The position numbers and the translations under genes were made by a program. This document shows, piece after piece, positions 1,026 to 59,772 of a stretch of DNA of 64,000 nucleotides. The notes below the pieces were generated by a model that saw nothing but the letters and a program-made list of their open reading frames with translations, searched no databases and was not told where the DNA came from. The stretch is taken from the NCBI GenBank assembly GCA_024614665.1, contig GCA_024614665.1_4861.1; one strand, written 5' to 3'. How positions within the stretch are numbered: the first letter of the stretch is position 1; every line of letters starts with the position of its first letter. Origin of the DNA: a phage.

Positions 1026-1060
1026 TAAAAAATGAAGATACCCTCCCCCGAAGGAGAGGG
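1026..1060 (-). terminator. hairpin + T-run (imperfect stem)
   Basis: ccctccccc-gaa-ggagaggg inverted repeat followed on minus strand by T-rich run. Confidence 0.35.
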
Positions 1061-1066
1061 TACGAC

Positions 1067-2564: not shown

Positions 2565-2573
2565 AGAGGTACC

Positions 2574-4707: not shown

Positions 4708-4740
4708 ACATCACCTTGTTACAAGGGAATAGATTAAAAG

Positions 4741-5271
4741 TTAGAGATAGTGTTCCACTATCACTTCTAACTCGCGGAAGATATGTGCGGTTTGATTAAA
4801 CAGCGTATCCTGTTCGGGTGTTTGTTTATCAAATGCACGCTGATACTGTTCTAACATAGCGAAGACCGTGCGCAGTTTTTCGCGCGCGACTTCAGGATCG
4901 GATGCACCGAAATAGTGATCAAGCCATCGTGGTTCTGAACTCTCTCCTTTTCTATCGATTGCCTCAGGCAACTCTAACCAACGTTGATTGGGAATGTTGC
5001 TACTGGATACACGGTTATACTCAGAAATGAAGAATTCCAATCGCTCCACCAACGTGTCAAAATCTCGAATACGTAATTCGAGTTGTCCACGCAATGAAAA
5101 AGGAAGGTATTCTTTCCCATTATATTCCAGAGGCTCTGTAATGAGTTCTAAGCCCACCATCACTCTGTGCAGGGTGTTATGGGTATTCTTATGAAACTCA
5201 GCCTCCAAAGAGCGTCTGCGAGCTTCTACAGCCTTACGACGCAGGAGTGTTGAAAGCCATTTAAAAAGCAT
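4741..5271 (-). CDS. hypothetical protein (176 aa)
   Basis: Intact ORF preceded by divergent intergenic region with AGATAATATCT motif. Confidence 0.45.
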   Translation of the reverse strand: MLFKWLSTLLRRKAVEARRRSLEAEFHKNTHNTLHRVMVGLELITEPLEYNGKEYLPFSLRGQLELRIRDFDTLVERLEFFISEYNRVSSSNIPNQRWLELPEAIDRKGESSEPRWLDHYFGASDPEVAREKLRTVFAMLEQYQRAFDKQTPEQDTLFNQTAHIFRELEVIVEHYL

Positions 5272-5304
5272 AGGTGTTATCCTATTATGAGATGTTGTCT
5301 CGGA

Positions 5305-5318
5305 TAGATAATATCTGT
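5305..5318. promoter_or_regulatory. palindromic AGATAATATCT motif in divergent intergenic region
   Basis: Near-palindrome containing TAATAT/ATATTA hexamers 30-45 nt from both flanking start codons. Confidence 0.3.
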
Positions 5319-5347
5319 CTGAGTTCTTTTTGAGATGAGGTTATCCC

Positions 5348-5818
5348 ATGAGCGAAGAAGTGAAATACCAAGCGTTCGACGGAGATGTGGACAACGAAGA
5401 TTCGCTTCTCCGCCAAACACAACAGCTACGCGTTAAGCTCGTCACAGATATGGTTAACGACGGTGAAGTACACAAAGACTTAAAAGCCGTCGACCGAATC
5501 GAGCGCCTAATCAACGGCATCGACAAACAGGTCATGACGAAGCGGAAAATTAAAGCTGCTGAGAAAGGCGCTGAGGCGACTCAAGATTTGGCCAACAGTT
5601 TAAACGGCTTCTTAATGACCCGTGCAGGCGTTGGTATCAAACGTCACGACGATGAAGAAGATTTAAATAACGGATACCAACCCACCGTCCCACAGATTGC
5701 CGCAGTACGGCCTCCGAAAGAAGGTGAGTTGGCACCAGTAGGCGAAAAGATTGACGTTGACCAGATCATGGCATCTGCGTTTGCGAGTCGTCGTCCTGCT
5801 GATGACGACGAAGACTAA
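5348..5818 (+). CDS. hypothetical protein with acidic C-terminus (156 aa)
   Basis: ATG preceded by GAGG; ends PADDDED; convergent 53-nt overlap with next minus gene so one end may be mis-set. Confidence 0.4.
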   Translation: MSEEVKYQAFDGDVDNEDSLLRQTQQLRVKLVTDMVNDGEVHKDLKAVDRIERLINGIDKQVMTKRKIKAAEKGAEATQDLANSLNGFLMTRAGVGIKRHDDEEDLNNGYQPTVPQIAAVRPPKEGELAPVGEKIDVDQIMASAFASRRPADDDED

Positions 5819-6494
5819 ACAGCGCAGTGTCCTTTACGTCAGTACCGACGTATTGGGCAAGAAAACGGGTGGACTCCTTAAAGGGGTTCACCTTATCTCT
5901 TTTTATTTGCGCGATTGCTTCTTCCGTTAATTCGCTGGTCAGCATACTCGGTCGGGTAATCGTAAAATCCGGAATCGGTTTCTGGAAATGGCTCGCGTGT
6001 TGTTCTATCCACGGATACCAATCGTACATTATCCAACCATCCCATGCAGAAGCAAGTCGTCCTGGTGTAAGATCGCTGTGAGGAATAACAACGACGTCTA
6101 CTTGCACTTCGTTGTAGTAGTAGCGCAGTTCTTCCAAAAACGCATGACGTTCTTCATCATCGAGATCGGCGTATGGCCACAGGTTAAACGTTAAGACAGG
6201 TCGCTCGATAGGAGCGTGCATCTGTATCGTCATTAACATTGCCTGTACTTCGTTCTTTAGCGTAAGCAACATTTCTGTTGGCTGCGCGTTCTGCAACGCG
6301 CGTTTATCACGCTCCGCGAACTTTTTATTCCAGTCCTGAATTCCTACCACTTCGGCCCACGCATCCGTGAACCGCATCCGATACACTTCTAAATCAAGCT
6401 TCTCTAATACATCAGGCTGCAACACTTTCGCCCAACCAATTCGTGTATCGAAGATTGTGTCGATATCGACTAAGAAACGGCGTCCTAATCTCAT
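5766..6494 (-). CDS. hypothetical protein (242 aa)
   Basis: Long ORF; ATGA-type overlap with upstream gene. Confidence 0.45.
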   Translation of the reverse strand: MRLGRRFLVDIDTIFDTRIGWAKVLQPDVLEKLDLEVYRMRFTDAWAEVVGIQDWNKKFAERDKRALQNAQPTEMLLTLKNEVQAMLMTIQMHAPIERPVLTFNLWPYADLDDEERHAFLEELRYYYNEVQVDVVVIPHSDLTPGRLASAWDGWIMYDWYPWIEQHASHFQKPIPDFTITRPSMLTSELTEEAIAQIKRDKVNPFKESTRFLAQYVGTDVKDTALFSLRRHQQDDDSQTQMP

Positions 6495-46578: not shown

Positions 46579-46652
46579 ACGGACTGCCTACGGGCGGGTA
46601 GTCCGTAGGTAAACCGCCCTTCCGTTATTGGGAGGGCGGTCTCCGTTTTATT
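46579..46652 (+). terminator. tandem hairpins + T-run between fibre genes (terminator/attenuator)
   Basis: acggact...agtccgt stem then accgccct/agggcggt stem followed by CTCCGTTTTATT. Confidence 0.4.
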
Positions 46653-46672: not shown

Positions 46673-49600
46673 ATGCCGAGAGAAGATGCGGCGCAGTTTA
46701 ACGGTACGCTCAGTACCGCTACTTACCCGAACCGTTATTCGGCGGTCATTCCCGTCGAAGCACCGTTCTATCGCATCGGGTTAACGTTAACCGTTACCGA
46801 TAAAACAACCGGAACCAAACGCAAGTTAATAGAAGGTCTTGATTATTTCTTAGGACATTACTTCCAGGAATTAGCCGAGGCTGAGAACGATGCAATATAC
46901 GGCAGCATAATGCTGCTGAACGCCACAGAGGTAGAATACGAGTTGTTGTCGGTTGGTCGACAGTATCGCATCCCTGCTTCTGAAATCGGCAAGTATCTGG
47001 TTAAGACAGATATGAAAGACCCGCGTAACTGCGATTGGTCTGAGCTGATGAAATATCCGCCGATTATCTCGCCAATCGACCCGCCAAAAGACCTCGAAGA
47101 AGCGATTCTTCGCGATGAAATCGTAAAGGCGTTGGAAGATATCCGTCTGGGTATTTTAGAGCGCGCCCACGAGCTGGATGAGGCTTTTGCCGAAGTTACC
47201 GATTTGATTTATCAGAACGGTAAGCAGGTGTTTGAAGATGAGATGTATCAGCACCACCTGGTTAAAAACGCACACGGTTACACCTGCGGTGATATTGGCG
47301 CTCTCCCGGTACTCGGCAAAGCCGTAGATGCGACTAAGGCATTCGGACGTACCCTGGCAGAGCTAGTGACGTTAATGTCTACCAGCGGCATCCAACAGAA
47401 ACACGTTGACATGCTTCTGGATAATACCCTGGGTGATTTACTGGGCCGTATGCGTGTTCTGAATAACGACGCGATTACGTTCCAAACAACGTCTGGTCAC
47501 GTTATCAGCATGAAGGGTGAGAAGTTCATCATCACCTCGACAAAACCGCTGGTATTAAAAGCTGACCAGGATAACAACGAACCGGGTATCGCTACGGAGT
47601 TCAGTGCTGGTCTGAACACGCTTTGGGTTCACTCGGGTAAAGCAGGTGACAAGTGGGGCGATTATGATGCGGGTGTGCTTGCACCTGTGTATAATAGCGT
47701 GTATCTCGTTACACCGGATATGGTTAAGATGTACTTGACCTCGGTGAAGATACTTCCAGCAAACGCCTACTTCAAGTCCAGCGACACGTTGAAGATTTAT
47801 GGCTCTGGTAAAGAAACAAACAAAGTTTACATGAATGCGGAGCTGCCTGCAGCAACCACAACTGTGCAGGGTTTGTTTGCGATTACTAACCTTTCGGCGT
47901 CCGCTGCATCGTCCACAGCGATTTCCCAAAAAGCTGTTACTGACTTGAAGAACAAACTCGACGGATATGTGGACGACACGTATACGGTCAACGGCAAAGG
48001 GTTTGTGTTAGACGAAAACGGTCAAATGCATTTAACCTTAACCGCGTCGGATTTCGGTATTGAGAAGATGAACAATACCGGGCCGCTGGAGAAACCGGTT
48101 ACTAATGCGTTGCGCACCGTGCTATCAGGCAAGGCACTCTCAACACACACCCACACCATTGCTGATCTCGATGACGTGCCGTACGCATCCACATCTGTTA
48201 CAGGTTTGGCTAAACTGTGGGATGCTATTGACACCACAACAGATAAGATGGTTACTGCCCGCCAGGGTTTCTTGCTCGAACAGAAGATCGGTACACTGAA
48301 CGACAAGATTGCTACGTTGTTGCCAGCATGGACCGTTGGCGGATCGTCGTACGGTAACAATAACTTCTTGCCTATACCTGTCCAGGGGAACTACGAAGGG
48401 TACACCAAAAACCAAACTTGGCAAAAAGGACTGGCGCGTTACGAGGCTGGTAAGGTTTACTCGTTGCGTAATGGTTCCAACGGTAACGCCCCTGCTGACT
48501 GGGCTATCTATTACGCCTATGCTGATGTGTCGCCAAGCAATACGCTGGAAAATATGCAGCAGACGTCCGTACGTTATCACCCCGCTGGAATGTCGGCGTA
48601 TCCTGGGGTGAATCTGGTTGCTATTCTGATTACCGGTACAGATGCAATGATCTGCTTAGGCAGTGACGGTGCGTATTACCTGGTCATCTTTGACGGCACC
48701 ATTGACCATGCAAAACATCATCGTGTTGTTAAAGTTTACTTGGGCGATTACCGAAATGGTAACGCGGCCGGTGTGATTACAACCGCACCATGGGTTGCCG
48801 ATCCATCAACAAACGATTTGATCGTTTGCAACGATCGGGTTTATCTGCTCCGTACTGTGCTTACCTCCGGTGACTATTTCGTGAGTATGCGTAGCATCGC
48901 ACTCGACGAACTTAATCTGGGTGGTAGCAACACGTTTGTGGCGGATGTGTTAACGGGTGGGATGTTAACGTCGGGAGATAATATCTACTTGCGTCAGGGT
49001 CAGAAACGTTCTGATACAGATGTGTTGGTAGCGCCAGTAACACAAATCTACGCAGACGCATCGGCGAAGTGGAATAGTGCGCGAAATTTCGTCCATGGTC
49101 CGGAATGTAATCACGCGATTGCTGTGGATGGGCTGAACTTTCGTGTTGGTTTAACGCCAACAGTCTGGTTTGCTTCTACTACAGGGCAAACTATTAACTT
49201 TAAACAATGGGTGTCAAGCTTTGTTGTTGATTGCAGTTCAATGACGGTAACGCTGGAAGGGGCTGATCGATTCCCTATTGTGGCTGATCTTACCGCGGTT
49301 CGTTATAACGGTGGTGCTGAGATTGGGATTCCGAGCTGGAAGTGGGGCGAAGGTCAAGCTAATAACCGAACCTTTGCAACATCGCAAGACAAGTATATTG
49401 TTTCGCAAGGACTTTCAGGCGATCGCGACCTAATGCCTTATGTCAGGATTACAACGTTAGATGACGGTGTGAGTTGGTACGAGTACCTGTCGTGCGACTA
49501 CAACTTCACTGCCAGAAGTTTTAGTGCGGTAATGTTAAACCAAGGACGTGGTTCTATCTACGAGCTGGGTATGGCGTATCCGCTGACTCTGGGAGCGAAT

Positions 49601-51856
49601 TCCAGACTTATCTGGTTGTCACAACCGCGTACCCGTTTGGCAATTGAAGTTGAGTTTGATCCGAACACCACTTACTCAGGTAAGGCGGGGTATGGCCCAA
49701 CTAACAATCGTCGTGTAGTAGATTCTATCACGTATGAGAATCTGTCGCAGATGTGCCACATTGTTACACCGGCGTCGCCTGGTACAGAGTTAAACGGCTG
49801 GTATTGCACAGGACCAGAAACATTCCCTTACCACAACGTTTCCGGCACTTTCACGATTCATGCCGATCGATTGACGCTGTCACAAGCTGAATGGAATAAG
49901 ATGAAGCAGATGATCATCGACGGAGCACCGGCAGGCGCTGCGAATGGTTATGCTTCGGAATTTATCCTTGCTGCAAATAACGCAGGAAAGGCATTGTTTT
50001 CCGTTTGGTTCATCGGCATCGGAACGGCCACACCGCTCACATTAGCACAAGTAGCATGTACACGTACTGTGAACAATGTTAACGTGTTAGATATCTACTA
50101 CTTTACACTGAAACCAACAATCAGCAACGGGCAGGTAACATTCCCCGCAGCGATATTGGCACTGTTTGACTTCTATAACAACCTCGTCTATGGCTTGAAC
50201 TATGCTACGTTGGGAGAGATAACGGGAGGAAAAACACGCCGGCCGGGACAACCTACCATGGTGTCGGTAGATGGTACGCAGTTCGGGTTGTATCTTCCAC
50301 ACACGTTAACCTTGCGCCAAATTGGCGACTTGGGTGCGCTTAACTACGGTGTCGGTCTTACGCTGTCTAATGGTACCTGGACGCGTTCTTCTGCCCCGCG
50401 CGGCATTGGACGCATGGCACCATCACACACTCCAGTCAGCCCAGCTTATCTGGCTCATCGTGATCAGGTGATGCTACACAACTCATCTCTCGACTACGTC
50501 TATTGTGGTGGTATCGCAATGTCGTCGAGTGATTTTGTCGCGGCTCCTAATTTTAGTGGCCCGACTGAATCGGTCGTCATTGCTGGTGTGGAAACAGCCG
50601 AAGGTTGGCTGGTATATGTGACTGAGGAAGTTAACCTGCGTTTCGGCTCGAGCACTTATAAGCTGCCTACGTGGTATATTGACCTCAGCGCAGCGTTTCC
50701 AACAAACCATCAGAACCGGACATTCTACCTGCACGCCAAGGTAGAAAATGGTACACCGAAGTACGTAATGGACGTGATTCAACATCCAGACACTGAAACG
50801 GAACTCTATATCGGGTATGTTAAAACGGGCTCGTCGCGAGTCGTCGAGACTAATGTCGAACATGTTAAGCGCTTGGGTGCGGTGAAACAGCTGTTGGAAC
50901 ACGCAGCAGTTGAGAATAAGCACGATGTGGAAGTGGGAAGGGATGCAGCAACGGGCAGACTGGCACCATTACGTAAAGAAGCGATGGGTCCTTTGTCTAT
51001 CGATGGCAAGAAAGGCTATCTGGATAGTCAGTTGCTTTATACCGTATCTGACGCACAGCGTCGCGGTAAAGCGATGGTGTCCAAACGTTTCGAAGGCTTG
51101 AAAACCTTGCCGGTGTTTACTCAGGCAAACAAGTCGGGGGCGTTTTGGAAACATCCTACAACAATTGCGACGGTAACGGCCGATGAGAACGGTGAAGCGG
51201 CATCGTTGGGAATGGAGTGGGTAGGTATTCCAACGCCCGCCTTCTCTCCGACCACAACATACGCGATGGTGATGATACAAAGTAAATTCGTCGTCCCAGG
51301 TACACCTGGAGTGGAAACAACCTTTAATGTCAACATCGCCCCATGGGAGACGGTAGAAATGTTTTTCTACAACGTCGAGGCGGAAGGTAAGGATGTTAAC
51401 ATTGATGAAAGTTCAGAACTGTTAACGCCGAGACCACATACCGTGTATCACGAACAGCACTCTCTGCCCGCAGGCGTGCCATGTACGTTTACTTTCGTTG
51501 GTGTGTTGAGTTCCTCAGCGCTTGAGATGGCCAACCAGCATATTTGCTCTTGGCTTTTCACGGACGCGGGGGGACTACCAATCACCACCGATCTTTCGGA
51601 TAGTAAGATTCAAATCTTTCCAGCGGCGGGAGAGACCAACGGCACACCAGTTGTTTTTAACAGCCGTAGCTACACGTTTGTGGATGTGGCGGGTGCAATT
51701 CCGGTTGTTACCACGGGCGCTCAGGGTTTATACCCACCACCGATCGTGGCGTGGGATGGCGATGATCTTACGTTAACGATTGCGCACGATTGGGTGAACG
51801 AGAGAGGATGGCAACAGGCTAATGTTATCCAGGTCAATCTTATGTTCCGTACCTAA
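46673..51856 (+). CDS. large tail fibre / receptor-binding-like structural protein 3 (about 1727 aa)
   Basis: Start at ATG with AGGAG RBS (track ORF begins at upstream TTG); N-terminus APFYRIGLTLTV...LIEGLDYFLGHY. Confidence 0.55.
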   Translation: MPREDAAQFNGTLSTATYPNRYSAVIPVEAPFYRIGLTLTVTDKTTGTKRKLIEGLDYFLGHYFQELAEAENDAIYGSIMLLNATEVEYELLSVGRQYRIPASEIGKYLVKTDMKDPRNCDWSELMKYPPIISPIDPPKDLEEAILRDEIVKALEDIRLGILERAHELDEAFAEVTDLIYQNGKQVFEDEMYQHHLVKNAHGYTCGDIGALPVLGKAVDATKAFGRTLAELVTLMSTSGIQQKHVDMLLDNTLGDLLGRMRVLNNDAITFQTTSGHVISMKGEKFIITSTKPLVLKADQDNNEPGIATEFSAGLNTLWVHSGKAGDKWGDYDAGVLAPVYNSVYLVTPDMVKMYLTSVKILPANAYFKSSDTLKIYGSGKETNKVYMNAELPAATTTVQGLFAITNLSASAASSTAISQKAVTDLKNKLDGYVDDTYTVNGKGFVLDENGQMHLTLTASDFGIEKMNNTGPLEKPVTNALRTVLSGKALSTHTHTIADLDDVPYASTSVTGLAKLWDAIDTTTDKMVTARQGFLLEQKIGTLNDKIATLLPAWTVGGSSYGNNNFLPIPVQGNYEGYTKNQTWQKGLARYEAGKVYSLRNGSNGNAPADWAIYYAYADVSPSNTLENMQQTSVRYHPAGMSAYPGVNLVAILITGTDAMICLGSDGAYYLVIFDGTIDHAKHHRVVKVYLGDYRNGNAAGVITTAPWVADPSTNDLIVCNDRVYLLRTVLTSGDYFVSMRSIALDELNLGGSNTFVADVLTGGMLTSGDNIYLRQGQKRSDTDVLVAPVTQIYADASAKWNSARNFVHGPECNHAIAVDGLNFRVGLTPTVWFASTTGQTINFKQWVSSFVVDCSSMTVTLEGADRFPIVADLTAVRYNGGAEIGIPSWKWGEGQANNRTFATSQDKYIVSQGLSGDRDLMPYVRITTLDDGVSWYEYLSCDYNFTARSFSAVMLNQGRGSIYELGMAYPLTLGANSRLIWLSQPRTRLAIEVEFDPNTTYSGKAGYGPTNNRRVVDSITYENLSQMCHIVTPASPGTELNGWYCTGPETFPYHNVSGTFTIHADRLTLSQAEWNKMKQMIIDGAPAGAANGYASEFILAANNAGKALFSVWFIGIGTATPLTLAQVACTRTVNNVNVLDIYYFTLKPTISNGQVTFPAAILALFDFYNNLVYGLNYATLGEITGGKTRRPGQPTMVSVDGTQFGLYLPHTLTLRQIGDLGALNYGVGLTLSNGTWTRSSAPRGIGRMAPSHTPVSPAYLAHRDQVMLHNSSLDYVYCGGIAMSSSDFVAAPNFSGPTESVVIAGVETAEGWLVYVTEEVNLRFGSSTYKLPTWYIDLSAAFPTNHQNRTFYLHAKVENGTPKYVMDVIQHPDTETELYIGYVKTGSSRVVETNVEHVKRLGAVKQLLEHAAVENKHDVEVGRDAATGRLAPLRKEAMGPLSIDGKKGYLDSQLLYTVSDAQRRGKAMVSKRFEGLKTLPVFTQANKSGAFWKHPTTIATVTADENGEAASLGMEWVGIPTPAFSPTTTYAMVMIQSKFVVPGTPGVETTFNVNIAPWETVEMFFYNVEAEGKDVNIDESSELLTPRPHTVYHEQHSLPAGVPCTFTFVGVLSSSALEMANQHICSWLFTDAGGLPITTDLSDSKIQIFPAAGETNGTPVVFNSRSYTFVDVAGAIPVVTTGAQGLYPPPIVAWDGDDLTLTIAHDWVNERGWQQANVIQVNLMFRT

Positions 51857-51903
51857 CAGATAGCGCTATGGGGCAAGGAAGCCCCAATCAAAGGAGTTTG
51901 GCA

Positions 51904-53106
51904 ATGGCCGAAATCATTTATCAGTACCCGCTCGACCTTACCGGGACATTAACGTCGAACGCCGTTACGCGGCGTATTACGTTAGGTTCTGGTAAAGTTA
52001 ACCGGGCTTTTGCATTTCCTGACGGAGCTTTCTACGCGGATACTTTCCGCTTAGCGGCTGCGAACAAACCGGGTGTCTACCCGTACAAACGTGGTACAGA
52101 CTACGAGCTGATTTTTGCACATACTGCATATCAGAAAATGACCAAGAACCGCGAAGTGGTCATGGGTGTGGTGGTAACTAACTCGGCCATTCCTACAGAT
52201 ATCGAAGTCTCTGCGCAAGTCGTTGGTGGTTTTCAGTCTGCGAACGTCGAAGGCATCCGACAAGCGATTGCGTCGTTGAAAATTGAAGACCGCGTGGTGG
52301 ACTTCAAGGATCTTCGGAACGTACCCGATACGTTCCCGTCCGCACCGACGTATAAAGACCTTGGCGATATCTACGGTTTTGAGTACATCATTACCGTGCT
52401 CGCGGGGATTAAAGATGCGATTAACTCCGGCTCTGCAGTACAGCTGGAAGAAATTAAAGGTATTCTGGACGGTCTGAAAAACGACTTCCTCGATGCCTTA
52501 AATACCCACATCAACGCCGAAGGTAACGTACACAATCTCGACATTCATCAGGTTAATGGCCTGACGGAGACGGAGATTCGTGCTCTGATTCAAAGTGTAC
52601 AGACTGCCATTGACGCCACTATCAGAGATATCGGCGACTTAAGAGCAGCAGACACGGCGTTGGGGCAACGCATCGATGCAGTTGTGGCTTCGTTAGCCGC
52701 GTGGAACGACCAGCTTAATGTAGTTGCTCAAAATTACCAGAAAATGTCGTTAGCATTAGCTAACCTTAATTCTCTGGTGTTGCAATTACAGAAGAAGGTT
52801 AATGATCTTCAGTCTGCGCTGAATGAAACAAATCAGCGTGTCACGGATCTTGAGAATCAAGGCAAAGACTTCCAACAGCAAATTGATAACCTGCAAGGAC
52901 AAATCAACAGTCTTAAAACTCAGGTTGTAAACAACACCAACGCAATTTCGCAGGCAAACCAGAATCTGGCGAACCATGCGGCTGCGGATAACCCACACCC
53001 GAATTACCTCCATAAACAGTATGGCGGTGTTGTGCAGGCTGCTGTTCACGTCAACAACAACCTCACCTCGCGCGACGATGTTCAAGCTGAAGCGGGTACT
53101 AAGTAA
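51904..53106 (+). CDS. fibre-like protein with shared N-terminal domain and C-terminal coiled coil (about 400 aa)
   Basis: Start at ATG with AAAGGAG RBS; N-terminus GAFYADTF...KRGTDYELIFAH; heptad-like Q/N/L-rich C-terminus. Confidence 0.5.
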   Translation: MAEIIYQYPLDLTGTLTSNAVTRRITLGSGKVNRAFAFPDGAFYADTFRLAAANKPGVYPYKRGTDYELIFAHTAYQKMTKNREVVMGVVVTNSAIPTDIEVSAQVVGGFQSANVEGIRQAIASLKIEDRVVDFKDLRNVPDTFPSAPTYKDLGDIYGFEYIITVLAGIKDAINSGSAVQLEEIKGILDGLKNDFLDALNTHINAEGNVHNLDIHQVNGLTETEIRALIQSVQTAIDATIRDIGDLRAADTALGQRIDAVVASLAAWNDQLNVVAQNYQKMSLALANLNSLVLQLQKKVNDLQSALNETNQRVTDLENQGKDFQQQIDNLQGQINSLKTQVVNNTNAISQANQNLANHAAADNPHPNYLHKQYGGVVQAAVHVNNNLTSRDDVQAEAGTK

Positions 53107-53113
53107 CTTGTTT

Positions 53114-53160
53114 ACGAGCCGGACTATGTTTATGGACATAGTCCGCTCGTTCTACTTTTT
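53114..53160 (+). terminator. intrinsic terminator separating fibre module from Cys-peptide cassette
   Basis: cggactatgt/acatagtccg stem, then TCTACTTTTT. Confidence 0.5.
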
Positions 53161-53171
53161 AAGGAAGCGTA

Positions 53172-53564
53172 ATGGCGATATCTATTAAAGACGTCAGAAA
53201 CCGCGTCCAGATAGTCGAAGCTAACATGGCGACAGGCCCCCGTATCGACGCGCAAGTGGCCTCTAAAGCCCATAACGCGGCAGACCGATTTGGGGGTTGG
53301 ACGAAAACACAGCTAGATTGCGGCGGGACATGTTCTTGGACGTGCTCTAACGGTTGCTCGCATGGCTGTTCGAGCTGTTCAGGAAGCTGTTCTGCTTCTT
53401 GTATCGGTAGCTGTTCTTCGACGTGTGGCGGTAACTGTTCTGGTTGCTCTGGTTGTTCTGGTGGTTGCAGTAGTAGCTGTACCGGTAACTGCACAGGTGG
53501 TTGCGGTGGCTCTTGTTCCGCAAACTGCTCCGGGGCCTGCTCCGGCGGCTGTTCAGGTCGCTAA
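53172..53564 (+). CDS. Cys-rich leader+core peptide A (130 aa), candidate RiPP precursor
   Basis: AAGGAAG RBS; leader-like N-terminus (ISIKDVRNRVQIVEAN); core has about 21 Cys at Cxxx spacing. Confidence 0.6.
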   Translation: MAISIKDVRNRVQIVEANMATGPRIDAQVASKAHNAADRFGGWTKTQLDCGGTCSWTCSNGCSHGCSSCSGSCSASCIGSCSSTCGGNCSGCSGCSGGCSSSCTGNCTGGCGGSCSANCSGACSGGCSGR

Positions 53565-53574
53565 GGGGGATTAA

Positions 53575-53979
53575 ATGGCAATTGGATTAAAAGAACTGAA
53601 TAACCGATTAAACACGATCGATGCAAACGCTCTAAAGAATACCACGAATGTGCAAAACTACATTCGCAATAAAGCTACGAATAACGCCGACTTGTTCGCA
53701 GGTCAAGGCCGTTCGCACTATGACTGTGGTGGCACATGCTCTTTTAGTTGCTCGAGTTGTTCTGGCGGATGTACTGGGTCTGCGACAGGTGGTTGTGGGT
53801 CGACTTGTTCGGCAAACTGTGTATCAGGCTGTAGCAGCAGCTGCACGGGCTGTAGCTCTTCGTGCTCTGGTGGTTGTAGCGGCACGTGCACAGGCAGCTG
53901 TTCTGGGGGTTGTGGTAAATCCTGCTCCGCAAACTGCTCAGGTGCGTGCTCTGGTGGTTGTTCAGGTCCTAACTCCTAA
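53575..53979 (+). CDS. Cys-rich leader+core peptide B (134 aa), candidate RiPP precursor
   Basis: AAGGGGGA RBS; leader (IGLKELNNRLNTIDAN); core about 20 Cys; C-terminus near-identical to peptide A (SCSANCSGACSGGCSG). Confidence 0.6.
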   Translation: MAIGLKELNNRLNTIDANALKNTTNVQNYIRNKATNNADLFAGQGRSHYDCGGTCSFSCSSCSGGCTGSATGGCGSTCSANCVSGCSSSCTGCSSSCSGGCSGTCTGSCSGGCGKSCSANCSGACSGGCSGPNS

Positions 53980-53994
53980 CTGACGGAGGCTTAT

Positions 53995-54201
53995 GTGATC
54001 AGTCTCAAGACTATTCGAAACCGTCTCGTTACGGCAGAAGGCTACATTACAACCGCGCAGGCAAACAACTATATCGCTAACCAGGGCACCGTGTCAACCA
54101 CGAACAACCTGGCTGGTTTACCGCTTTCTCACTATAACTGTAATGGTGGGTGTAGCTGGTCCTGCAGCGGAAGCTGTAGCCGTGGAGCGGGGAATCGATA
54201 A
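53995..54201 (+). CDS. short Cys-containing leader+core peptide C (68 aa), candidate RiPP precursor
   Basis: GTG start 5 nt after GACGGAGG; leader (ISLKTIRNRLVTAEGY); short core CNGGCSWSCSGSCS. Confidence 0.45.
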   Translation: MISLKTIRNRLVTAEGYITTAQANNYIANQGTVSTTNNLAGLPLSHYNCNGGCSWSCSGSCSRGAGNR

Positions 54202-54223
54202 CAGAAAACGTTCGGAGTATTAA

Positions 54224-55111
54224 ATGAAAAACGATTTGCATCTTGCGTATAAAACCACATTCAACCACCCGCTGCATCTATCTTCCCCAGATTCGGTGCG
54301 TGCACACCTCGCTGACAAAGTCAGACTGATTGCACAGATTCCTGGTGAGTGGCCAAAGGTTCGTGGTCGCTTCTTGACCGACAAGAAGAACTACACCGTA
54401 GAAAATACGTTTAAGATCCGTGATATGGTTGCAGAGGCCATCGTTATCTTTAACGGCGATGGTAACTCTCGCGGCGTGTTGGTTGACGGTAAGTATTTCT
54501 TCAGTGAAGGGATTCTGAACAACAGTGTCGATTTAGAACTGATGTTTACACCGTTTGACGAACTCGAAGCAAAACCGATGGCGCGCCGTTGGTGGAGTCC
54601 GGACTATCTGGGCTCGTTCCCTTACTACTTTGTACTGGTACCTGCCGATACGGAAACGTATTTCGACACCGAACCGTACATCGATATCGAGGGATATAAA
54701 GAACTCGGCATCACCCGTTTAGCGGACATGATGGCGTATAGCTATAAGTTCGTGTGGGATAAAAAGCGTTCTGTCTGGTATGCGCTGACTGACGATTTTG
54801 AAATCACCAAACGTATTCGTAAGCCGTGGATGCAACACCTGGTTCAAACCCGATATGGGGATTACCCGGCGACAGAAGCGGATTTGAGTAAGCTGGTAAG
54901 CTTCCTCTTAACGAAGGTGGATTTAACGAAAGAAGAAGCAGAAGCTGTTTCTGAGATTCGTAGTCGTTCGGTTACGTTGGCCGATTTGAAACGCTTGAAC
55001 GAAAGACATGCCGACCTGAACAAAATTTTAGCTGCCTATCACGACCCGATGTTACTGGTGCCTGGCGCTAATGTAGACGAAGATCCTTTATTCGCCATTG
55101 ATTATATTTAA
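54224..55111 (+). CDS. hypothetical protein in Cys-peptide/radical SAM cassette (295 aa)
   Basis: Between the peptide genes and the radical SAM genes; no motif recognised. Confidence 0.5.
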   Translation: MKNDLHLAYKTTFNHPLHLSSPDSVRAHLADKVRLIAQIPGEWPKVRGRFLTDKKNYTVENTFKIRDMVAEAIVIFNGDGNSRGVLVDGKYFFSEGILNNSVDLELMFTPFDELEAKPMARRWWSPDYLGSFPYYFVLVPADTETYFDTEPYIDIEGYKELGITRLADMMAYSYKFVWDKKRSVWYALTDDFEITKRIRKPWMQHLVQTRYGDYPATEADLSKLVSFLLTKVDLTKEEAEAVSEIRSRSVTLADLKRLNERHADLNKILAAYHDPMLLVPGANVDEDPLFAIDYI

Positions 55112-55133
55112 AAATATACTGGAGCAACCTGCA

Positions 55134-56048
55134 ATGACAGATCAAGTAGAATCCAGGATCTCGTCTGAACTGTACGACAAACCGTCAATTCTGTCGGTTG
55201 TCGCAACTTCTAAGTGTAACTTAGACTGTAGCTTCTGTGGAGGGGCTTATTACATGGATAGAGAAGATACTTCTCGTGAGTTTCAACGTGAAGAGATTCT
55301 CTCGATTTTAGAGAAGAATCCGGATATCGGTGAAATTCATTGGACGGGCGGTGAGCCGCTGTTAGCGCAGCGCAAGATTGAAGACTTCGTGAACGAGTTG
55401 AAGGAGTCTCATCCGAACCTCCGTCATCACATGTACACCAACGGTTTAAAGATGCGTAAATCACATCTGCCGTTGCTGAAACAGTTCGACCTTATCTTTG
55501 TGTCCATTGACGGCTACAAGAAGTCGGAACGTCCGTTTATGAACTTTGTAAACGGTGGTAATCACGAAGCGCTGGAAGTGCTGTACGAGCTGGACAACTA
55601 TTACACCTGGGGTGTGATGACGCGTGACCAGTTAGGTGATAAACGCTGGTACGAAGATTTCATCGAGCTGCACCGAGCAATCTATCATTACCGTCCAGGT
55701 GGTATGTCGTTGCTGTTTGATGCGATGATGCCGAAACCGTTATCGCCAGACCACGTCATGAACTTCATGTACGGGTATTGGAAAATACTCGACAATATCG
55801 AACGCCTTAACATGCAGAACGATTCTGAGTGTGGGCTTGCGATCAGTAAAATGTTCGATACTGAGTGCAACACGTGCAGTGAAGTGCTGTGGCTTAACGC
55901 CGACGGTACGCAGGAGCAAATTCAGAACGCCCCAGAGATATTGGAAGTCGGCTGTAATCGCCTGGCGCGTTCTATCGGCGTTGATGCGTATAACTACATC
56001 AACCGTGTAATTTCTGCTAAGCGTAAACGGGCGGCGAACAATGAGTAA
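55134..56048 (+). CDS. radical SAM enzyme 1 (about 304 aa)
   Basis: CNLDCSFC (CxxxCxxC) near N-terminus and IHWTGGEPLL; extra C-terminal Cys; ATG with GGAG RBS (track ORF begins at upstream TTG). Confidence 0.7.
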   Translation: MTDQVESRISSELYDKPSILSVVATSKCNLDCSFCGGAYYMDREDTSREFQREEILSILEKNPDIGEIHWTGGEPLLAQRKIEDFVNELKESHPNLRHHMYTNGLKMRKSHLPLLKQFDLIFVSIDGYKKSERPFMNFVNGGNHEALEVLYELDNYYTWGVMTRDQLGDKRWYEDFIELHRAIYHYRPGGMSLLFDAMMPKPLSPDHVMNFMYGYWKILDNIERLNMQNDSECGLAISKMFDTECNTCSEVLWLNADGTQEQIQNAPEILEVGCNRLARSIGVDAYNYINRVISAKRKRAANNE

Positions 56049-57369
56049 CAGCGAACAGCAAATCCAGTACACACCACGCACGTATCAGGTTGTGACTAAC
56101 CTGTCATGTAATCTGGACTGCGAATACTGCTACGAGCGTAAATATCCTCGTAACAACAAAGTAGCAGACGTGATTGATTTTATCCACGCTTGTTTCGAGC
56201 GTGATAAAGATATCCCGAACGTTGAGGTCATCATCGATATCATCGGTGGTGAGCCGTTCATGCAGCCTAAACTTCTTTTGGCGGCCTTTGAAACCGCAGA
56301 GAAGTTATGCGCAGAACACAATCGCCCGTATATGTTCAGTATCTCCACGAACGGTACACTTCTGGACCGTCCGCTGAACAAAGAAATTATCGAGCGCTGG
56401 AAAGACAAACTGTCTATTGGGGTCTCCATCGATGGTTTACCTGAAGTCCATGACAAATATCGTATCTTTACCACGACGCGTGAAGGGTCGTACGAAGCTG
56501 CGGTACGCGGTTACAATTATCTGAAGAGTGTTGGCATCGCTGAATTAGGCGTAAAGGCGACGTTTACGATCGATACATTGCCGCACTATGCCGCCAGCAT
56601 GAAATCGTTAATTGACATGTCCGGCGGTGGTACCATTTCTGGTAACGTAACGTACGAAGATATCCTGCCGCGCCATATGGCGTTGGATATCGCGAACCAG
56701 ATGATGGACGTGATGGACTACTGGATTGAGAAGGGTCTGCACACCAACCCGCGTAACACGATTACACACATCATCCCGGATGGCCTGAACTTTATGGCAA
56801 CTTGGGACCCGGATTGGCGTGACAAACTCTTACATGACGACTCTGTTCGTCTCGACCCAGAACGCCTGAAACCGTACTGCGGTACGTTGACGCACATGAC
56901 CTGTCTCGGCTTTGATCGCAAGATTTACGGTTGTAACCGTTTCATGTCCACGGTAACTTCCCGTTCTGCTGTAGCAGAACTGGTCGGTCGTGAGTTTGTG
57001 AGCCTGGACGGTGGTAAGTTGTTAGAAGAGATTCAAACACAGTACACCAACTACCCAGAAACCTGTTTAGGGTGTCCGATGAAACACAGTTGCGGTAGCT
57101 GCGCAGCAGCATCGTACGAAAACGGTGAAGGTACACTGGAAGACCGTAAAGCGTATCACGCCGAGCGTCGTCAGTGTGGTTGGACTACTGCGAAGCTGAT
57201 GGCGGCGGAATATTGGTATCAGAAAACTGGTACGACCCGCGCATCAGATTTGCATGATAAATCCATGTGCTATTGTTCACGTTGTGTACGCCAACGTGCT
57301 GAAGCAGAAAAATTACAAAACGGAGCCCAGAATGAAGTCAATACTGATTCACAATTTTACGAAGCGTAA
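56041..57369 (+). CDS. radical SAM enzyme 2 with SPASM-like C-terminal Cys cluster (442 aa)
   Basis: CNLDCEYC and IIGGEPFMQP; C-terminal CGTLTHMTC...CLGCPMKHSCGSC...CYCSRC; ATGAGTAA overlap with enzyme 1. Confidence 0.7.
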   Translation: MSNSEQQIQYTPRTYQVVTNLSCNLDCEYCYERKYPRNNKVADVIDFIHACFERDKDIPNVEVIIDIIGGEPFMQPKLLLAAFETAEKLCAEHNRPYMFSISTNGTLLDRPLNKEIIERWKDKLSIGVSIDGLPEVHDKYRIFTTTREGSYEAAVRGYNYLKSVGIAELGVKATFTIDTLPHYAASMKSLIDMSGGGTISGNVTYEDILPRHMALDIANQMMDVMDYWIEKGLHTNPRNTITHIIPDGLNFMATWDPDWRDKLLHDDSVRLDPERLKPYCGTLTHMTCLGFDRKIYGCNRFMSTVTSRSAVAELVGREFVSLDGGKLLEEIQTQYTNYPETCLGCPMKHSCGSCAAASYENGEGTLEDRKAYHAERRQCGWTTAKLMAAEYWYQKTGTTRASDLHDKSMCYCSRCVRQRAEAEKLQNGAQNEVNTDSQFYEA

Positions 57370-57898
57370 ACTGCACTTGGTCGATCGCTTCCTGCGCAAA
57401 AGCAAGCTGTACAATGTGCACGCAATTGTGGCAGGGGAAGACTTCACTGATGAAATCCAAAGCCTGTTGATTAAATACGGGCTGAATGTGATGATCCCGG
57501 TCTACTGCGTTGAGAAAGGACACGAGTCTGTCGCGGAAATCGAAAAGCGCAACCCCGGCTTTGAGAAGCGACTGCTTGCATACCCACGCCACAAAATCGA
57601 ACTGCTACGTCACTCTATTGATGAAGCCAGTCCTGAAAGTTTAGTGGCTTTGGGCTTGTCTTTCCCGCGGATGCGTATTCGTAACTTACGCTCCAATAAC
57701 CCGGTTGACGCTTATTACACAGAGCGTCAAATCTTCGAAGAACACCTGCTCCCGCAGTTGGAAGAAGAAGAGCAACACAACATTTCTCTGTTGTGGGCCG
57801 GTAACCTCGATCAGGACTTCCAGATGCTGGACTTCGGTTTGTTGTTAGAACTTGGCCTGATTGAGGAGGACGAATGTCTGTTACTGACAAAAGCTTAA
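57332..57898 (+). CDS. hypothetical protein in cassette (about 188 aa)
   Basis: Start at ATG with GGAG RBS (MKSILIHNF); overlaps end of radical SAM 2. Confidence 0.45.
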   Translation: MKSILIHNFTKRKLHLVDRFLRKSKLYNVHAIVAGEDFTDEIQSLLIKYGLNVMIPVYCVEKGHESVAEIEKRNPGFEKRLLAYPRHKIELLRHSIDEASPESLVALGLSFPRMRIRNLRSNNPVDAYYTERQIFEEHLLPQLEEEEQHNISLLWAGNLDQDFQMLDFGLLLELGLIEEDECLLLTKA

Positions 57899-58545
57899 CG
57901 AACGAAGAGATCCGCGCCCGTTATTTCCAGCGTGATTTGCCGATTGATCGTCACGGTAATTTCATGGAACGAATCGGTGCGCAGGATCAGGGCCGTACAG
58001 GCTTTTGCGCTCTGCTCCATTATCATCTCATCGAAGGGATGTCTGATAAAGAAGCCCTGGCACGCATGAAGCTGTATGAGATGTCGGAGATTGAAGCTAA
58101 CTTCACATTGAAACGCACGAAAGAGTTTATTGCTAATGTGCTGGAGATTGACCTCGACGAAATTCGCGGGAATCTGAAATCTACCGCACGTTACATTTAC
58201 GAAGACGTGCAGAAGATGCTGTTGGAGCTTGACCACCGCTACGAAGATGAGCGTCATGGTTATATCGAGTTTGAAGGTAGTCACTTTCAAGCCGATGAAT
58301 CGTCGCGTACCATCCTCGGTCAATACATTCAGGCAGATACCGCACCAGAATACTGGCTCGATACGCTGAATACTAAGCACAGTCCGTTTACAGTAGCCCA
58401 ATGTAAAGCGTTGCTGGCCGCTATTGTTGCACGTGACCAAGTGTTGCACTCAGCAATGGCAGATAACAAACGCCATATCCGTGAGTTAGCTGAAAAGCGC
58501 GATTACACTGGATTAAAAACATTGTCCGAATCTCTCGGCATTTAA
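57874..58545 (+). CDS. hypothetical protein in cassette (223 aa)
   Basis: GGAGGA RBS; followed by bidirectional terminator. Confidence 0.45.
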   Translation: MSVTDKSLTNEEIRARYFQRDLPIDRHGNFMERIGAQDQGRTGFCALLHYHLIEGMSDKEALARMKLYEMSEIEANFTLKRTKEFIANVLEIDLDEIRGNLKSTARYIYEDVQKMLLELDHRYEDERHGYIEFEGSHFQADESSRTILGQYIQADTAPEYWLDTLNTKHSPFTVAQCKALLAAIVARDQVLHSAMADNKRHIRELAEKRDYTGLKTLSESLGI

Positions 58546-58547
58546 GC

Positions 58548-58602
58548 AAAGAAAATAAAGGCCCTACCTCCCTTCGGGGAGGTAGGTACCTTATTTTATT
58601 TC
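58548..58602. terminator. bidirectional intrinsic terminator
   Basis: A-rich run, stem cctacctccc/gggaggtagg, T-run CCTTATTTTATTTC. Confidence 0.6.
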
Positions 58603-58625
58603 TTAGAAACTACTAAGTTGTTTTG

Positions 58626-59153
58626 TTAAACGAATCCGTCCAGTTCACCGTTGGTGGTGCTCAGGTCAGTTTTAACGATTGGCTGCGTTACAGTATAAAC
58701 TGCAGGGCTGCCAGGTCGGTATTTAATGTGGCCTGATTTCACCTTAACAGTGATGACTTTCTCACCACTGCTGCCGTCCACGCGTTTAATGATGAGTTCA
58801 GACAATGCAAACGCATCTTCCGTTTTACCGGCGGCAATTAGATCTGCGTTGACAAAAGCAAGCACTTCTTCATCGGTATCCCATTCTGCCTGGTCAGCGG
58901 TAACTGCCTTCTCACCGATGATGTCCGATAAATTGAGGCGGGTATAATGCAGCTCTTTCACGCCAGTAAAGTTAGCGGATTCCGCGGTGGCGGTGATGGT
59001 GAGATTGGTGTTGCGAGTGTCTCCAGAATCTGCTGGTGAATAGTCAGCAACAGCGCCGAATGTAACGTCAGCAGCAGTTAACGGACTAGGCAGTCCGCTG
59101 TTTGCAGCATTAAACAGCGCGACGAGTTGGTCTTTTGCAGAGATGACTGCCAT
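58626..59153 (-). CDS. hypothetical protein, possibly structural (175 aa)
   Basis: Intact ORF; Thr/Ala/Val-rich composition; function unknown. Confidence 0.45.
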   Translation of the reverse strand: MAVISAKDQLVALFNAANSGLPSPLTAADVTFGAVADYSPADSGDTRNTNLTITATAESANFTGVKELHYTRLNLSDIIGEKAVTADQAEWDTDEEVLAFVNADLIAAGKTEDAFALSELIIKRVDGSSGEKVITVKVKSGHIKYRPGSPAVYTVTQPIVKTDLSTTNGELDGFV

Positions 59154-59280
59154 GGTTGTTTCCTTATAGTAGGTTTGTGGTGCATACTAAATCGTTCTAA
59201 AAAAAATACATAGTGGGCTTAATATGACAGTAAAGTTGACTGTTAAACGAGAAAATTATTTACCACTGAAAGGATACCTT

Positions 59281-59772
59281 ATGAAACGTCTATTTATCGT
59301 ATTCGCGATTATAAACCTGTTGGCCGGTTGTGTTCAGTCGCCAAGCAACATAGGGCAATTTAGCGCCACACCGGTAAAGAATCACGACTTGGTGATTTAT
59401 ACATGCACAGGGACGCAGGAGAAGTTTGTAGACTACCGTCCGGTTCTGGACAACCTACAAATGATGCCGCGGTCAGTAACAGTATTGGATGTGGGTGCAA
59501 ACTGGGTAGCAACGTGGGACGGCGGCAAACTAGAGTCGCCGATGATGTTTAAAGACATGATCGGCAAAATCGACGGGAATGTTAACACCACCACGGGCGA
59601 GCGTTATTACCGTATTAATAAAACCGTAAACGATGGCCCCACTTATTCTTTTTCGGATGTGAACCCGCATACCGGGGAAGGTAAAGGGATGACGTTCTTT
59701 CGCTGCAATGGCGGCCTTATTGACGAAGTTCCTACCCCGATTACGATTGTTCCGTTAGAAGAAAATAAATAG
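59281..59772 (+). CDS. putative lipoprotein (about 163 aa)
   Basis: ATG with AAAGGA RBS; MKRLFIVFAIINLLAGC = signal peptide + lipobox LAGC; own terminator. Confidence 0.5.
   Translation: MKRLFIVFAIINLLAGCVQSPSNIGQFSATPVKNHDLVIYTCTGTQEKFVDYRPVLDNLQMMPRSVTVLDVGANWVATWDGGKLESPMMFKDMIGKIDGNVNTTTGERYYRINKTVNDGPTYSFSDVNPHTGEGKGMTFFRCNGGLIDEVPTPITIVPLEENK

What the first reader, a model, noticed from the sequence alone, without database searches (positions are those of the whole stretch)
54224..58545. Three unknown ORFs inside the cassette and no recognisable protease or exporter
Seen: one 295-aa ORF lies between the precursor and enzyme genes and two ORFs (about 188 and 223 aa) lie after them, all co-directional and within the same terminator-bounded unit. 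None shows a peptidase, ABC-transporter Walker motif or obvious membrane helix. Inference: they may be leader-recognition or scaffold proteins; absence of an exporter hints the product stays intracellular or is released on lysis or incorporated into virions.
Basis: inference. Interest (0 to 1): 0.45.

Follow-up and report, generated by a model that had tools for sequence, protein, structure and literature searches.

The report
Phage Cys-repeat cassette accessory proteins
Three helper genes beside two radical-SAM enzymes in a giant Salmonella phage are a tail-fibre-type folding chaperone, a radical-SAM-like fold with no iron-sulfur motif, and a protein with no known relatives, which hints that the cysteine-repeat proteins they serve are assembled into the phage rather than cut and exported like an antibiotic peptide.

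Summary
The window is a SPN3US-like jumbo phage (Seoulvirus, 99% identity). The three ORFs are real genes: gp165 (54224-55111), gp162 (57332-57898) and gp161 (57874-58545). With three CXXX-repeat proteins and two radical-SAM genes they keep the same order in 19/19 related loci. Each of the three occurs in 73 phage records with the same genus breakdown. Published proteomics found gp162 and gp165 only in crude preparations, never in purified virions.

No peptidase, ABC exporter, membrane helix or RRE/PqqD fold was found. A distantly related faecal contig has both a peptidase and an exporter, so the methods can see them.

The ORFs are not all unknown:
- gp161 carries Pfam DUF4376 and is homologous to Alteromonas phage V22 gp27, a proven tail-fibre chaperone (BLASTP 2e-7; hhalign 94%).
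- gp162 folds as a (beta/alpha)6 partial barrel closest to radical-SAM cores, but lacks CX3CX2C.
- gp165 gives a confident model with no structural relative.

gp164-gp161 overlap, and gp161's divergence tracks the cassette, not fibre gp168.

Best reading (about 0.45): a late morphogenetic module that cross-links and oligomerises (CXXX)~21 proteins, probably for the tail-fibre apparatus. The chemistry and the destination are inferred, not shown.

The parts
46673..51856 (+). gp168, large baseplate/tail-fibre protein. Context: first gene after the strong terminator at 46613-46640.
   Evidence: SPN3US annotation. Tail protein by MS in Thomas 2016 Table S4. Terminator scan.
51868..53106 (+). gp167, coiled-coil tail virion protein (context).
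   Evidence: phrog_2163 virion structural protein, 7.8e-109. Present in tailed virions and absent from tailless heads.
53114..53150 (+). Conserved hairpin between gp167 and CysA, with TATG in the loop. Possible terminator and/or phiKZ-type late promoter.
   Evidence: Folding z-score -4.1 here. A hairpin at the same place in 4 other loci, z -2.4 to -5.3, each with TATG in the loop. phiKZ late-promoter consensus is TATG (PMC4666361).
53172..53564 (+). CysA: 49-aa N-terminal domain plus a (CXXX) core with 21 Cys.
   Evidence: phrog_6085. Weak TIGR04114 hit, 18.5 vs 20 bits.
53575..53979 (+). CysB: 50-aa N-terminal domain plus a (CXXX) core with 20 Cys. SPN3US gp166 is annotated in the wrong frame over it.
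53995..54201 (+). CysC: short paralogue of 68 aa with the same N-terminal domain and only 4 Cys.
   Evidence: Orthologues of 67-69 aa are found across the clade.
54224..55111 (+). gp165 (295 aa): clade-specific alpha+beta protein with a helical C-terminal part and no known fold relative. Candidate substrate-handling factor (inferred).
55134..56048 (+). gp164: radical-SAM enzyme with CNLDCSFC and three conserved C-terminal Cys. The start is corrected relative to the SPN3US annotation.
   Evidence: Pfam Radical_SAM 1.1e-15. Start and motif. Conserved Cys.
56041..57369 (+). gp163: radical-SAM enzyme with a Cys-rich, SPASM-like C-terminal region. Closest families are the CXXX-repeat-target and PapB maturases.
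   Evidence: TIGR04115 3e-36 and PapB 1.1e-32, both below the curated cut-offs. Conserved Cys set.
57332..57898 (+). gp162 (188 aa): (beta/alpha)6 partial barrel resembling the radical-SAM core but without the CX3CX2C cluster motif.
57874..58545 (+). gp161 (223 aa): clade-specific N-terminal domain plus a C-terminal DUF4376 domain. Tail-fibre-chaperone homologue.
   Evidence: PF14301 8.6e-9, 36.3 bits vs cut-off 25. BLASTP vs V22 gp27 2e-7. hhalign 93.7%.
58563..58586 (.). Strong bidirectional intrinsic terminator that closes the unit.
   Evidence: 10-bp stem with 7 GC pairs and T tracts on both strands. Folding -25.7 kcal/mol.

Best explanation
The three ORFs are dedicated, non-virion accessory proteins of a module specific to the SPN3US clade. 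The module matures three CXXX-repeat proteins, and it is more likely morphogenetic than antibiotic-producing.

Shown here:
- gp161 is a DUF4376 protein homologous to a proven tail-fibre chaperone.
- gp162 has a radical-SAM-like (beta/alpha)6 fold without the cluster motif.
- gp165 is a well-folded protein with no known structural relative.
- There is no peptidase, exporter, membrane helix or RRE-like fold.
- The genes are strictly syntenic, overlap one another and co-occur.
- The proteins are absent from purified virions.

Inferred:
- gp163 and gp164 install cross-links, probably thioethers, along the (CXXX)~21 cores.
- gp165 and/or gp162 hold or present the substrate, or partner the enzymes.
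- gp161 trimerises and caps the modified proteins as Tfa/IMC-type chaperones do, then leaves.
- The uncleaved products join the neighbouring gp167/gp168 fibre apparatus.
For: gp161 as a chaperone homologue:
- Pfam DUF4376 above the gathering score.
- BLASTP 2e-7 over 172 aa and hhalign 93.7% to V22 gp27.
- V22 gp27 is required for a functional fibre and resembles trimeric intramolecular chaperone domains (PMC7289586, PMC10579305).

Linkage to the cassette:
- gp164/163, 163/162 and 162/161 overlap by 8, 38 and 25 nt.
- The gene order is identical in 19/19 loci.
- Each ORF occurs in 73 phage records with the same genus breakdown.
- phiKZ has gp167/168 homologues but none of gp161-165.
- gp161 identity across loci correlates with CysA/B/C, gp165, gp164 and gp163 at r 0.85-0.96, but with gp168 at only about 0.3.

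Structural flavour of the substrates:
- The core is almost only C/S/G/T, with Cys every 4 residues.
- Type A has 21 Cys and the same spacing pattern in all five loci examined from different genera.
- The C-terminal ends are similar.

No cleavage or export machinery:
- None was found here.
- A cluster whose rSAM genes have the same best families does have a ClpP-like peptidase and an ABC exporter.

Setting:
- The cassette sits between tail genes (gp167-171) and head/lysis genes.
- A TATG-bearing hairpin upstream is consistent with a phiKZ-type late promoter.
- gp162, gp164 and gp165 peptides were seen only in crude prohead/tail/debris preparations and were zero in purified virions.
Against: - No direct evidence places the Cys-repeat proteins in virions. 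Published virion proteomes list nothing between gp160 and gp167, and CysA and CysC are not annotated and gp166 is in the wrong frame over CysB in SPN3US, so they were probably not searchable.
- The N-terminal domain of the Cys proteins occurs only in this clade and is never fused to a recognisable fibre protein. It could equally be a leader peptide.
- gp161 is not immediately downstream of a classical fibre gene.
- The N-terminal half of gp161 has no known homologue, and gp161 was not modelled.
- No biochemical role can be assigned to gp165.
- The rate correlation is confounded by shared phylogeny.
Confidence: 0.45

Rival explanations
1. Classical RiPP natural product. CysA/B/C are leader-core precursors. 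gp165, gp162 and gp161 are leader-recognition or scaffold proteins. The product is trimmed by host proteases and released at lysis to act on competing bacteria or on the host.
For: - gp163's best families are RiPP maturases: TIGR04115 3e-36 and PapB 1e-32.
- The precursors have a conserved ~48-aa N-terminal part followed by a repetitive Cys core.
- Neither rSAM enzyme has an N-terminal RRE-size extension, so a trans factor is plausible.
- The Cys proteins are not listed in published virion proteomes.
Against: - No RRE fold or family was found in gp165 or gp162.
- gp161 is a fibre-chaperone homologue.
- There is no peptidase or exporter here, whereas the related cluster L015 has both and lacks any gp165/162/161-like gene.
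- Repeat number, paralogue set and position next to tail genes are fixed across genera. That is unusual for an antibiotic under diversifying selection.
Confidence: 0.25
2. The cassette makes an intracellular product, such as a metal- or redox-active Cys protein or an anti-defence factor, that works inside the infected cell. The three ORFs are its cofactors.
For: - There is no export or cleavage machinery.
- All three ORFs are non-virion.
- gp162 has invariant polar residues (K72 R73 N74 E78 K88 R120 D167) that could form an active or binding site.
Against: - There is no PADLOC or other family hit.
- A DUF4376 chaperone has no evident role in such a scheme.
- The late-operon position beside tail genes and the TATG hairpin point to morphogenesis.
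Confidence: 0.15
3. The three ORFs are ordinary tail-assembly factors for gp167/gp168 that only happen to flank the rSAM genes, and have nothing to do with the Cys-repeat proteins.
For: - gp161 carries DUF4376.
- The ORFs lie in the tail-gene region.
- gp167-gp171 are tail proteins.
Against: - The genes overlap the rSAM genes.
- They co-occur with the cassette and are absent from phiKZ, which has gp167/168 homologues.
- gp161 divergence follows the cassette (r 0.85-0.96) and not gp168 (r about 0.3).
Confidence: 0.1

Closest known systems
DUF4376 tail-fibre chaperones (Alteromonas phage V22 gp27, A5 gp9; Campylobacter CJIE1 H-fibre chaperone)
   Same: gp161 has the same size class (about 200 aa) and the same two-part architecture, with a variable N-terminal part and a C-terminal DUF4376. 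It shows significant sequence homology to V22 gp27. It is non-virion and sits at the 3' end of a fibre-gene region.
   Different: Its immediate upstream neighbours are two radical-SAM genes and gp162, with overlapping reading frames, not a fibre gene. Its client is unknown and may be the CXXX-repeat proteins. Its N-terminal 120 aa have no homologue outside the clade.
CXXX-repeat peptide / radical-SAM maturase system (NCBIfam TIGR04114 and TIGR04115) and PapB-type ranthipeptide maturases
   Same: gp163's best hits are these two families. The substrates are long runs of Cys every fourth residue. As in L015, two rSAM genes accompany a Cys-rich substrate.
   Different: Scores are far below the curated cut-offs (125.6 vs 350; 113.6 vs 340). 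The system is phage-encoded and embedded in a tail-gene region. It has three fixed paralogous substrates of 68-134 aa. It lacks a peptidase and exporter and instead has gp165, gp162 and a DUF4376 protein. No hit to any other CXXX-system family appeared.
His-Xaa-Ser repeat system with paired rSAM enzymes (HxsB/HxsC)
   Same: A SPASM-type and a non-SPASM rSAM enzyme are paired next to a tandem-repeat peptide. gp163 hits HxsB at 4.8e-21 and gp164 hits HxsC at 6e-12. The cassette layout of that system is from my own knowledge.
   Different: Both hits are far below the cut-offs. The repeat chemistry differs (Cys rather than His-Xaa-Ser). None of the three ORFs matched an Hxs family.
RRE / PqqD-like leader-recognition domains of RiPP pathways
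   Same: Only the genomic logic. The rSAM enzymes lack an N-terminal recognition domain, and small accessory proteins are present.
Radical-SAM core fold, including cluster-less 'pseudo-SAM' relatives
   Different: There is no CX3CX2C motif and no Pfam PF04055 hit. Profile similarity to gp163 and gp164 is absent. Generic TIM-like barrels score almost as well.

Membership tests
DUF4376 tail-fibre chaperone family (gp161) | Pfam PF14301 match above the gathering score | tested here: met
   36.3 bits vs cut-off 25, E 8.6e-9, residues 121-204. Two of three distant orthologues tested also pass (L003 41.8 bits, L007 45.8 bits); the Wellington orthologue (L008) gave no DUF4376 hit at E <= 0.01.
DUF4376 tail-fibre chaperone family (gp161) | Homology to an experimentally characterised member (V22 gp27) | tested here: met
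   BLASTP 27% identity over 172 aa, E 2e-7. hhalign of the 17-sequence family profile vs gp27: probability 93.7%, E 2e-7.
DUF4376 tail-fibre chaperone family (gp161) | Gene directly downstream of its client fibre gene | tested here: inconclusive
   gp161 is the last gene of the unit that follows gp168/gp167. It is separated from them by the Cys genes, gp165, two rSAM genes and gp162.
DUF4376 tail-fibre chaperone family (gp161) | Required for folding or trimerisation of a fibre, and absent from or only transiently on the virion | not testable with these tools
   Only the absence from published virion proteomes is known.
RRE / PqqD leader-recognition element (gp165, gp162, gp161) | PqqD/RRE family hit, or a winged-helix fold with a three-stranded sheet | tested here: not met
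RiPP leader peptidase / ABC exporter | Peptidase or ABC-transporter domain, or transmembrane helices | tested here: not met
   No hits in Pfam, NCBIfam, PHROGs or PADLOC. Hydropathy maximum is 1.35 or less. Positive control L015 gives a ClpP-like hit at 4e-17 and ABC hits down to 7e-66.
Radical-SAM superfamily (gp162) | CX3CX2C [4Fe-4S] motif | tested here: not met
   The only invariant Cys is C182, near the C-terminus.
Radical-SAM superfamily (gp162) | Partial (beta/alpha)6 TIM-barrel core | tested here: met
Radical-SAM superfamily (gp162) | Sequence-profile membership (PF04055) | tested here: not met
   No Pfam hit at E <= 0.1. hhalign vs gp164 and gp163 profiles gives probabilities of 3% and 0.1%.
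CXXX-repeat rSAM system (TIGR04114 / TIGR04115) | Maturase scores above the TIGR04115 cut-off | tested here: not met
   It is the best hit, but at 125.6 bits vs a cut-off of 350.
CXXX-repeat rSAM system (TIGR04114 / TIGR04115) | Adjacent small protein with many CXXX repeats | tested here: met
   20-23 Cys, nearly all spaced by 4, in CysA and CysB and their orthologues. The TIGR04114 hit is just below its cut-off, 18.5 vs 20.
CXXX-repeat rSAM system (TIGR04114 / TIGR04115) | Third, system-specific accessory protein of the bacterial cassettes (recalled from TIGRFAMs, not verified here) | tested here: not met
   gp165, gp162 and gp161 give no NCBIfam hit better than E 0.05, and none of those hits is to a CXXX-system family.

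The most novel reading that the evidence does not exclude
A clade of jumbo phages uses RiPP-type radical-SAM chemistry to staple (CXXX)~21 repeat proteins into cross-linked rods or filaments. A Tfa/IMC-like DUF4376 chaperone (gp161) then assembles them onto the tail-fibre apparatus, with a cluster-less rSAM-fold protein (gp162) and a new-fold protein (gp165) as substrate handlers. That would be a thioether-cross-linked virion structural component made by RiPP-type radical-SAM maturases; the paper searches run here found no such case described.
Probability: 0.3. Interest if true: 0.85.

Novelty: new variant of a known kind. Interest (0 to 1): 0.55.

Why it matters
Radical-SAM/SPASM maturases are known for making small, cleaved, exported peptides. 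Here a related enzyme pair is fixed inside the tail-gene region of a whole clade of jumbo phages. The peptidase and exporter are missing, and a fibre-type chaperone and two unclassifiable proteins sit beside the enzymes.

If the products are structural, RiPP chemistry would extend to virus morphogenesis. That would explain how a Cys-rich protein made in the reducing cytoplasm could be stabilised without disulfides.

There is also a practical result. The SPN3US reference annotation lacks CysA and CysC, has CysB in the wrong frame, and truncates the cluster motif of gp164. Existing proteomic datasets therefore probably could not have detected these proteins, and could be re-searched at no experimental cost.

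Tried and rejected
- RRE/PqqD, peptidase, ABC transporter and defence-system assignments for the three ORFs: no hits in Pfam, NCBIfam, PHROGs or PADLOC.
- Sequence searches of the PDB with single sequences and with profiles of all three families: nothing significant.
- gp162 as a diverged paralogue of gp163 or gp164: profile-profile comparison was negative.
- Looking for the Cys-protein N-terminal domain fused to fibre proteins elsewhere: it was found only in this clade, mostly as the short CysC type.
- Looking for bacterial counterparts of the cassette with a gp163 profile in species-representative genomes: only distant CPR (Saccharibacteria, Omnitrophota) rSAM genes with no CXXX neighbour.
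- Literature on phage CXXX or rSAM-modified fibres: nothing found. The cyanophage paper found was irrelevant.
- The infected-cell proteome paper of Weintraub et al. 2019 is not held.
- A resemblance of the 'NNADxLxG...SxY' stretch of the Cys proteins to fibre motifs is from memory only and was not testable, so it carries no weight.

Full report
**Identity of the window.** Region 53100-58700 is 99.0-99.3% identical to Salmonella jumbo phages SaP7, SEGD1 and SPN3US (Seoulvirus). In SPN3US numbering the finding covers gp165, gp164, gp163, gp162 and gp161. Upstream lie gp168, a 1727-aa baseplate/fibre protein, and gp167, a coiled-coil tail protein.

- The three ORFs are at 54224-55111 (295 aa), 57332-57898 (188 aa) and 57874-58545 (223 aa), all on the + strand.
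- The gp162 start at 57332 is fixed by the conserved MKS of 21 homologues.
- They are real genes. gp165 has 49 homologue clusters down to 40% identity, gp162 has 31, and gp161 has 27 representatives at the 50% level.
- Local HMM searches of 19 loci from isolates and metagenomes find the same order everywhere: gp168-gp167-CysA-CysB-CysC-gp165-gp164-gp163-gp162-gp161.
- tblastn finds each of the three in 73 phage records with an identical genus breakdown.
- Thomas et al. 2016 list homologues of gp161-165 in PhiEaH2 and CR5 but none in phiKZ, which does have a gp167 homologue.
- Reilly et al. 2020, Table S2, reports a few spectra for gp162, gp164 and gp165. They appear only in crude or prohead/tail preparations of protease mutants and are zero in purified wild-type or tailed virions. 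gp161 and gp163 were never seen.
- The virion list of Thomas et al. jumps from gp160 to gp167.

**Boundaries of the unit.**
- A strong bidirectional terminator follows gp161 at 58563-58586.
- Upstream, the consensus scan finds a strong terminator only at 46613-46640, before gp168.
- Folding shows a stable hairpin at 53114-53150 between gp167 and CysA (z -4.1). Hairpins sit at the same place in four other genera (z -2.4 to -5.3).
- All five loops contain TATG, the consensus of phiKZ late promoters, in which the G is the start site (PMC4666361). This is a lead, not a demonstration.
- Within the unit, gp164/163, 163/162 and 162/161 overlap by 8, 38 and 25 nt.

**The stated absences hold.**
- No peptidase, ABC transporter or defence family matches any of the three ORFs.
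- No 19-residue window exceeds a mean hydropathy of 1.35.
- There is a useful control. Locus L015 is a faecal 'Bacteriophage sp.' contig found through weak similarity to gp163. It carries two rSAM/SPASM genes with the same best NCBIfam families as gp163, a 62-aa precursor ending in CKGTCRGTCGGSCNGR, a ClpP-like peptidase (4e-17) and an ABC exporter (down to 7e-66).
- So a canonical layout exists among relatives, and the tools detect it.

**gp161.**
- Pfam DUF4376 matches residues 121-204 at 36.3 bits, above the cut-off of 25.
- DUF4376 is the conserved C-terminal domain of Alteromonas phage V22 gp27, which must be co-expressed for the fibre gp26 to bind cells (PMC7289586).
- It is also the domain of A5 gp9. 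Both were modelled as trimeric caps resembling the intramolecular chaperone domains of the T5 fibre and the K1F tailspike (PMC10579305).
- It is also present in the protein needed for the Campylobacter CJIE1 H-fibre (PMC7882524).
- I fetched V22 gp27. BLASTP against gp161 gives 27% identity over 172 aa with E 2e-7. A 17-sequence gp161 profile aligns to it with 93.7% probability.

**gp162.**
- The AlphaFold2 model is confident (pLDDT 89.4) and shows seven strands alternating with helices.
- Designed and ordinary TIM-like barrels come close behind.
- The family has no CX3CX2C motif. Its only invariant Cys is C182.
- It has no PF04055 hit and no profile similarity to gp163 or gp164.
- I read it as a cluster-less protein of radical-SAM-like fold. 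Its invariant polar residues (K72 R73 N74 E78 K88 R120 D167) leave open whether it binds something or catalyses something.

**gp165.**
- The model is confident (pLDDT 89.6, pTM 0.84).
- Foldseek against viral models finds only the Erwinia phage orthologue, TM 0.93.
- There is no RRE-like, protease-like or other recognisable fold, and no catalytic-looking invariant motif beyond many aromatic and basic residues and a C-terminal DPLF.

**The substrates and enzymes.**
- CysA, CysB and CysC share a 46-50-aa N-terminal domain.
- In A and B this is followed by 20-23 Cys at a spacing of 4, in a core made almost only of C, S, G and T.
- Type A has 21 Cys and the same spacing string in all five loci examined, which come from different genera.
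- Type C is always 67-69 aa with 4 Cys.
- gp163's best families are the CXXX-repeat-target maturase (3e-36) and PapB (1e-32), both far below their cut-offs.
- gp164 is a second rSAM enzyme. Its cluster motif is cut off by the SPN3US and CR5 annotations, and the true start is 55134.
- gp163 residue ~20 aligns to positions 83-121 of RRE-bearing maturase profiles, so it has no fused recognition domain.
- The same is true of the L015 enzymes, which have no gp165-like partner. A trans recognition factor is therefore possible but not required.

**Which client does gp161 serve?**
- Across 17 loci, gp161 identity to the window correlates with CysA/B/C, gp165, gp164 and gp163 at r 0.85-0.96.
- It correlates with gp167 at 0.76 and with gp168 or its C-terminal 500 aa at about 0.3.
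- gp168 is uniformly divergent, as expected for a receptor-binding protein that recombines. gp161 does not follow it.
- This is confounded by phylogeny. Together with the overlapping reading frames and the co-occurrence, it ties gp161 to the cassette rather than to gp168.

**Interpretation.**
- The best-supported reading is a late, morphogenetic maturation module. The enzymes cross-link the CXXX cores. gp165 and/or gp162 handle the substrate or partner the enzymes. gp161 oligomerises or caps the products. The products are neither cleaved nor exported and probably join the neighbouring fibre apparatus.
- Shown: the homology and fold assignments, the absences, the linkage, and the non-virion status of the accessory proteins.
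- Inferred: the thioether chemistry, the roles of gp165 and gp162, the client of gp161, and the destination of the products.
- Main rival: a conventional RiPP released at lysis.
- Weaker rivals: an intracellular product, or tail-assembly factors that are adjacent only by coincidence.

**Novelty.**
- No paper in the searchable library describes this cassette, CXXX systems in phages, or rSAM-modified fibres.
- gp161 is a new member of a known chaperone family.
- The combination of paired rSAM enzymes, CXXX-repeat proteins, a fibre-type chaperone, a cluster-less rSAM-fold protein and an orphan-fold protein, with no peptidase or exporter, is a new variant of a known kind of system.
- I score interest at 0.55. 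The ORFs themselves are only partly explained. They do shift the reading of the cassette in a direction that can be tested with existing proteomic data.

Noticed in passing
window 53172-54201 and 55134-55254: The SPN3US reference annotation misses CysA and CysC. It annotates gp166 (53648-53983) in the wrong frame over CysB. It starts gp164 at 55254, which cuts off the CNLDCSFC iron-sulfur motif. CR5 has the same gp164 truncation. Proteomic searches based on these annotations probably could not detect the Cys proteins.
   Followed up: yes
window 53114-53150; L003, L005, L007, L008 at the same intergenic position: A conserved hairpin lies between gp167 and CysA, and its loop contains TATG in all five loci. 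TATG is the phiKZ late-promoter consensus with the G as the start site. The hairpin could combine termination of gp167 transcripts with a late start for the cassette.
   Followed up: partly
L021 4278-5198 and L022 4270-5190: Two IMG/VR jumbo-phage contigs carry a third radical-SAM gene, gp164-like, inserted between CysA and CysB (Pfam Radical_SAM 1.8e-13).
   Followed up: partly
L015 (MT836223.1) 615-5923: A faecal 'Bacteriophage sp.' contig holds a textbook RiPP cluster: rSAM/SPASM, a 62-aa Cys-rich precursor, a 150-aa protein, a second rSAM/SPASM, a ClpP-like peptidase and an ABC exporter. An integrase-like fragment at its start suggests a mobile element rather than a phage structural region.
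   Followed up: partly
window 59224-59772 (+): gp159 has an internal start followed by a lipoprotein-type signal (MKRLFIVFAIINLLAGC) and no Pfam hit. It lies between the head protein gp160 (DUF7941) and the lysis-region genes gp157 (DUF1353) and gp156 (GH108 endolysin).
   Followed up: no
phage records LR535901, LR535905-08, LR535911-13 (SPFM1, 6, 9, 10, 12, 14, 15 and others): In several SPFM phage assemblies the cassette genes come back as 4-7 broken tblastn pieces with lowered identity. Their sister records are 98-99% identical and intact. This looks like assembly or sequencing error.
   Followed up: no
window 46673-51856 versus the other loci: gp168 is only 24-48% identical to its counterparts, even in phages whose neighbouring genes are 70-90% identical. 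This is the pattern expected of a recombining receptor-binding protein.
   Followed up: partly
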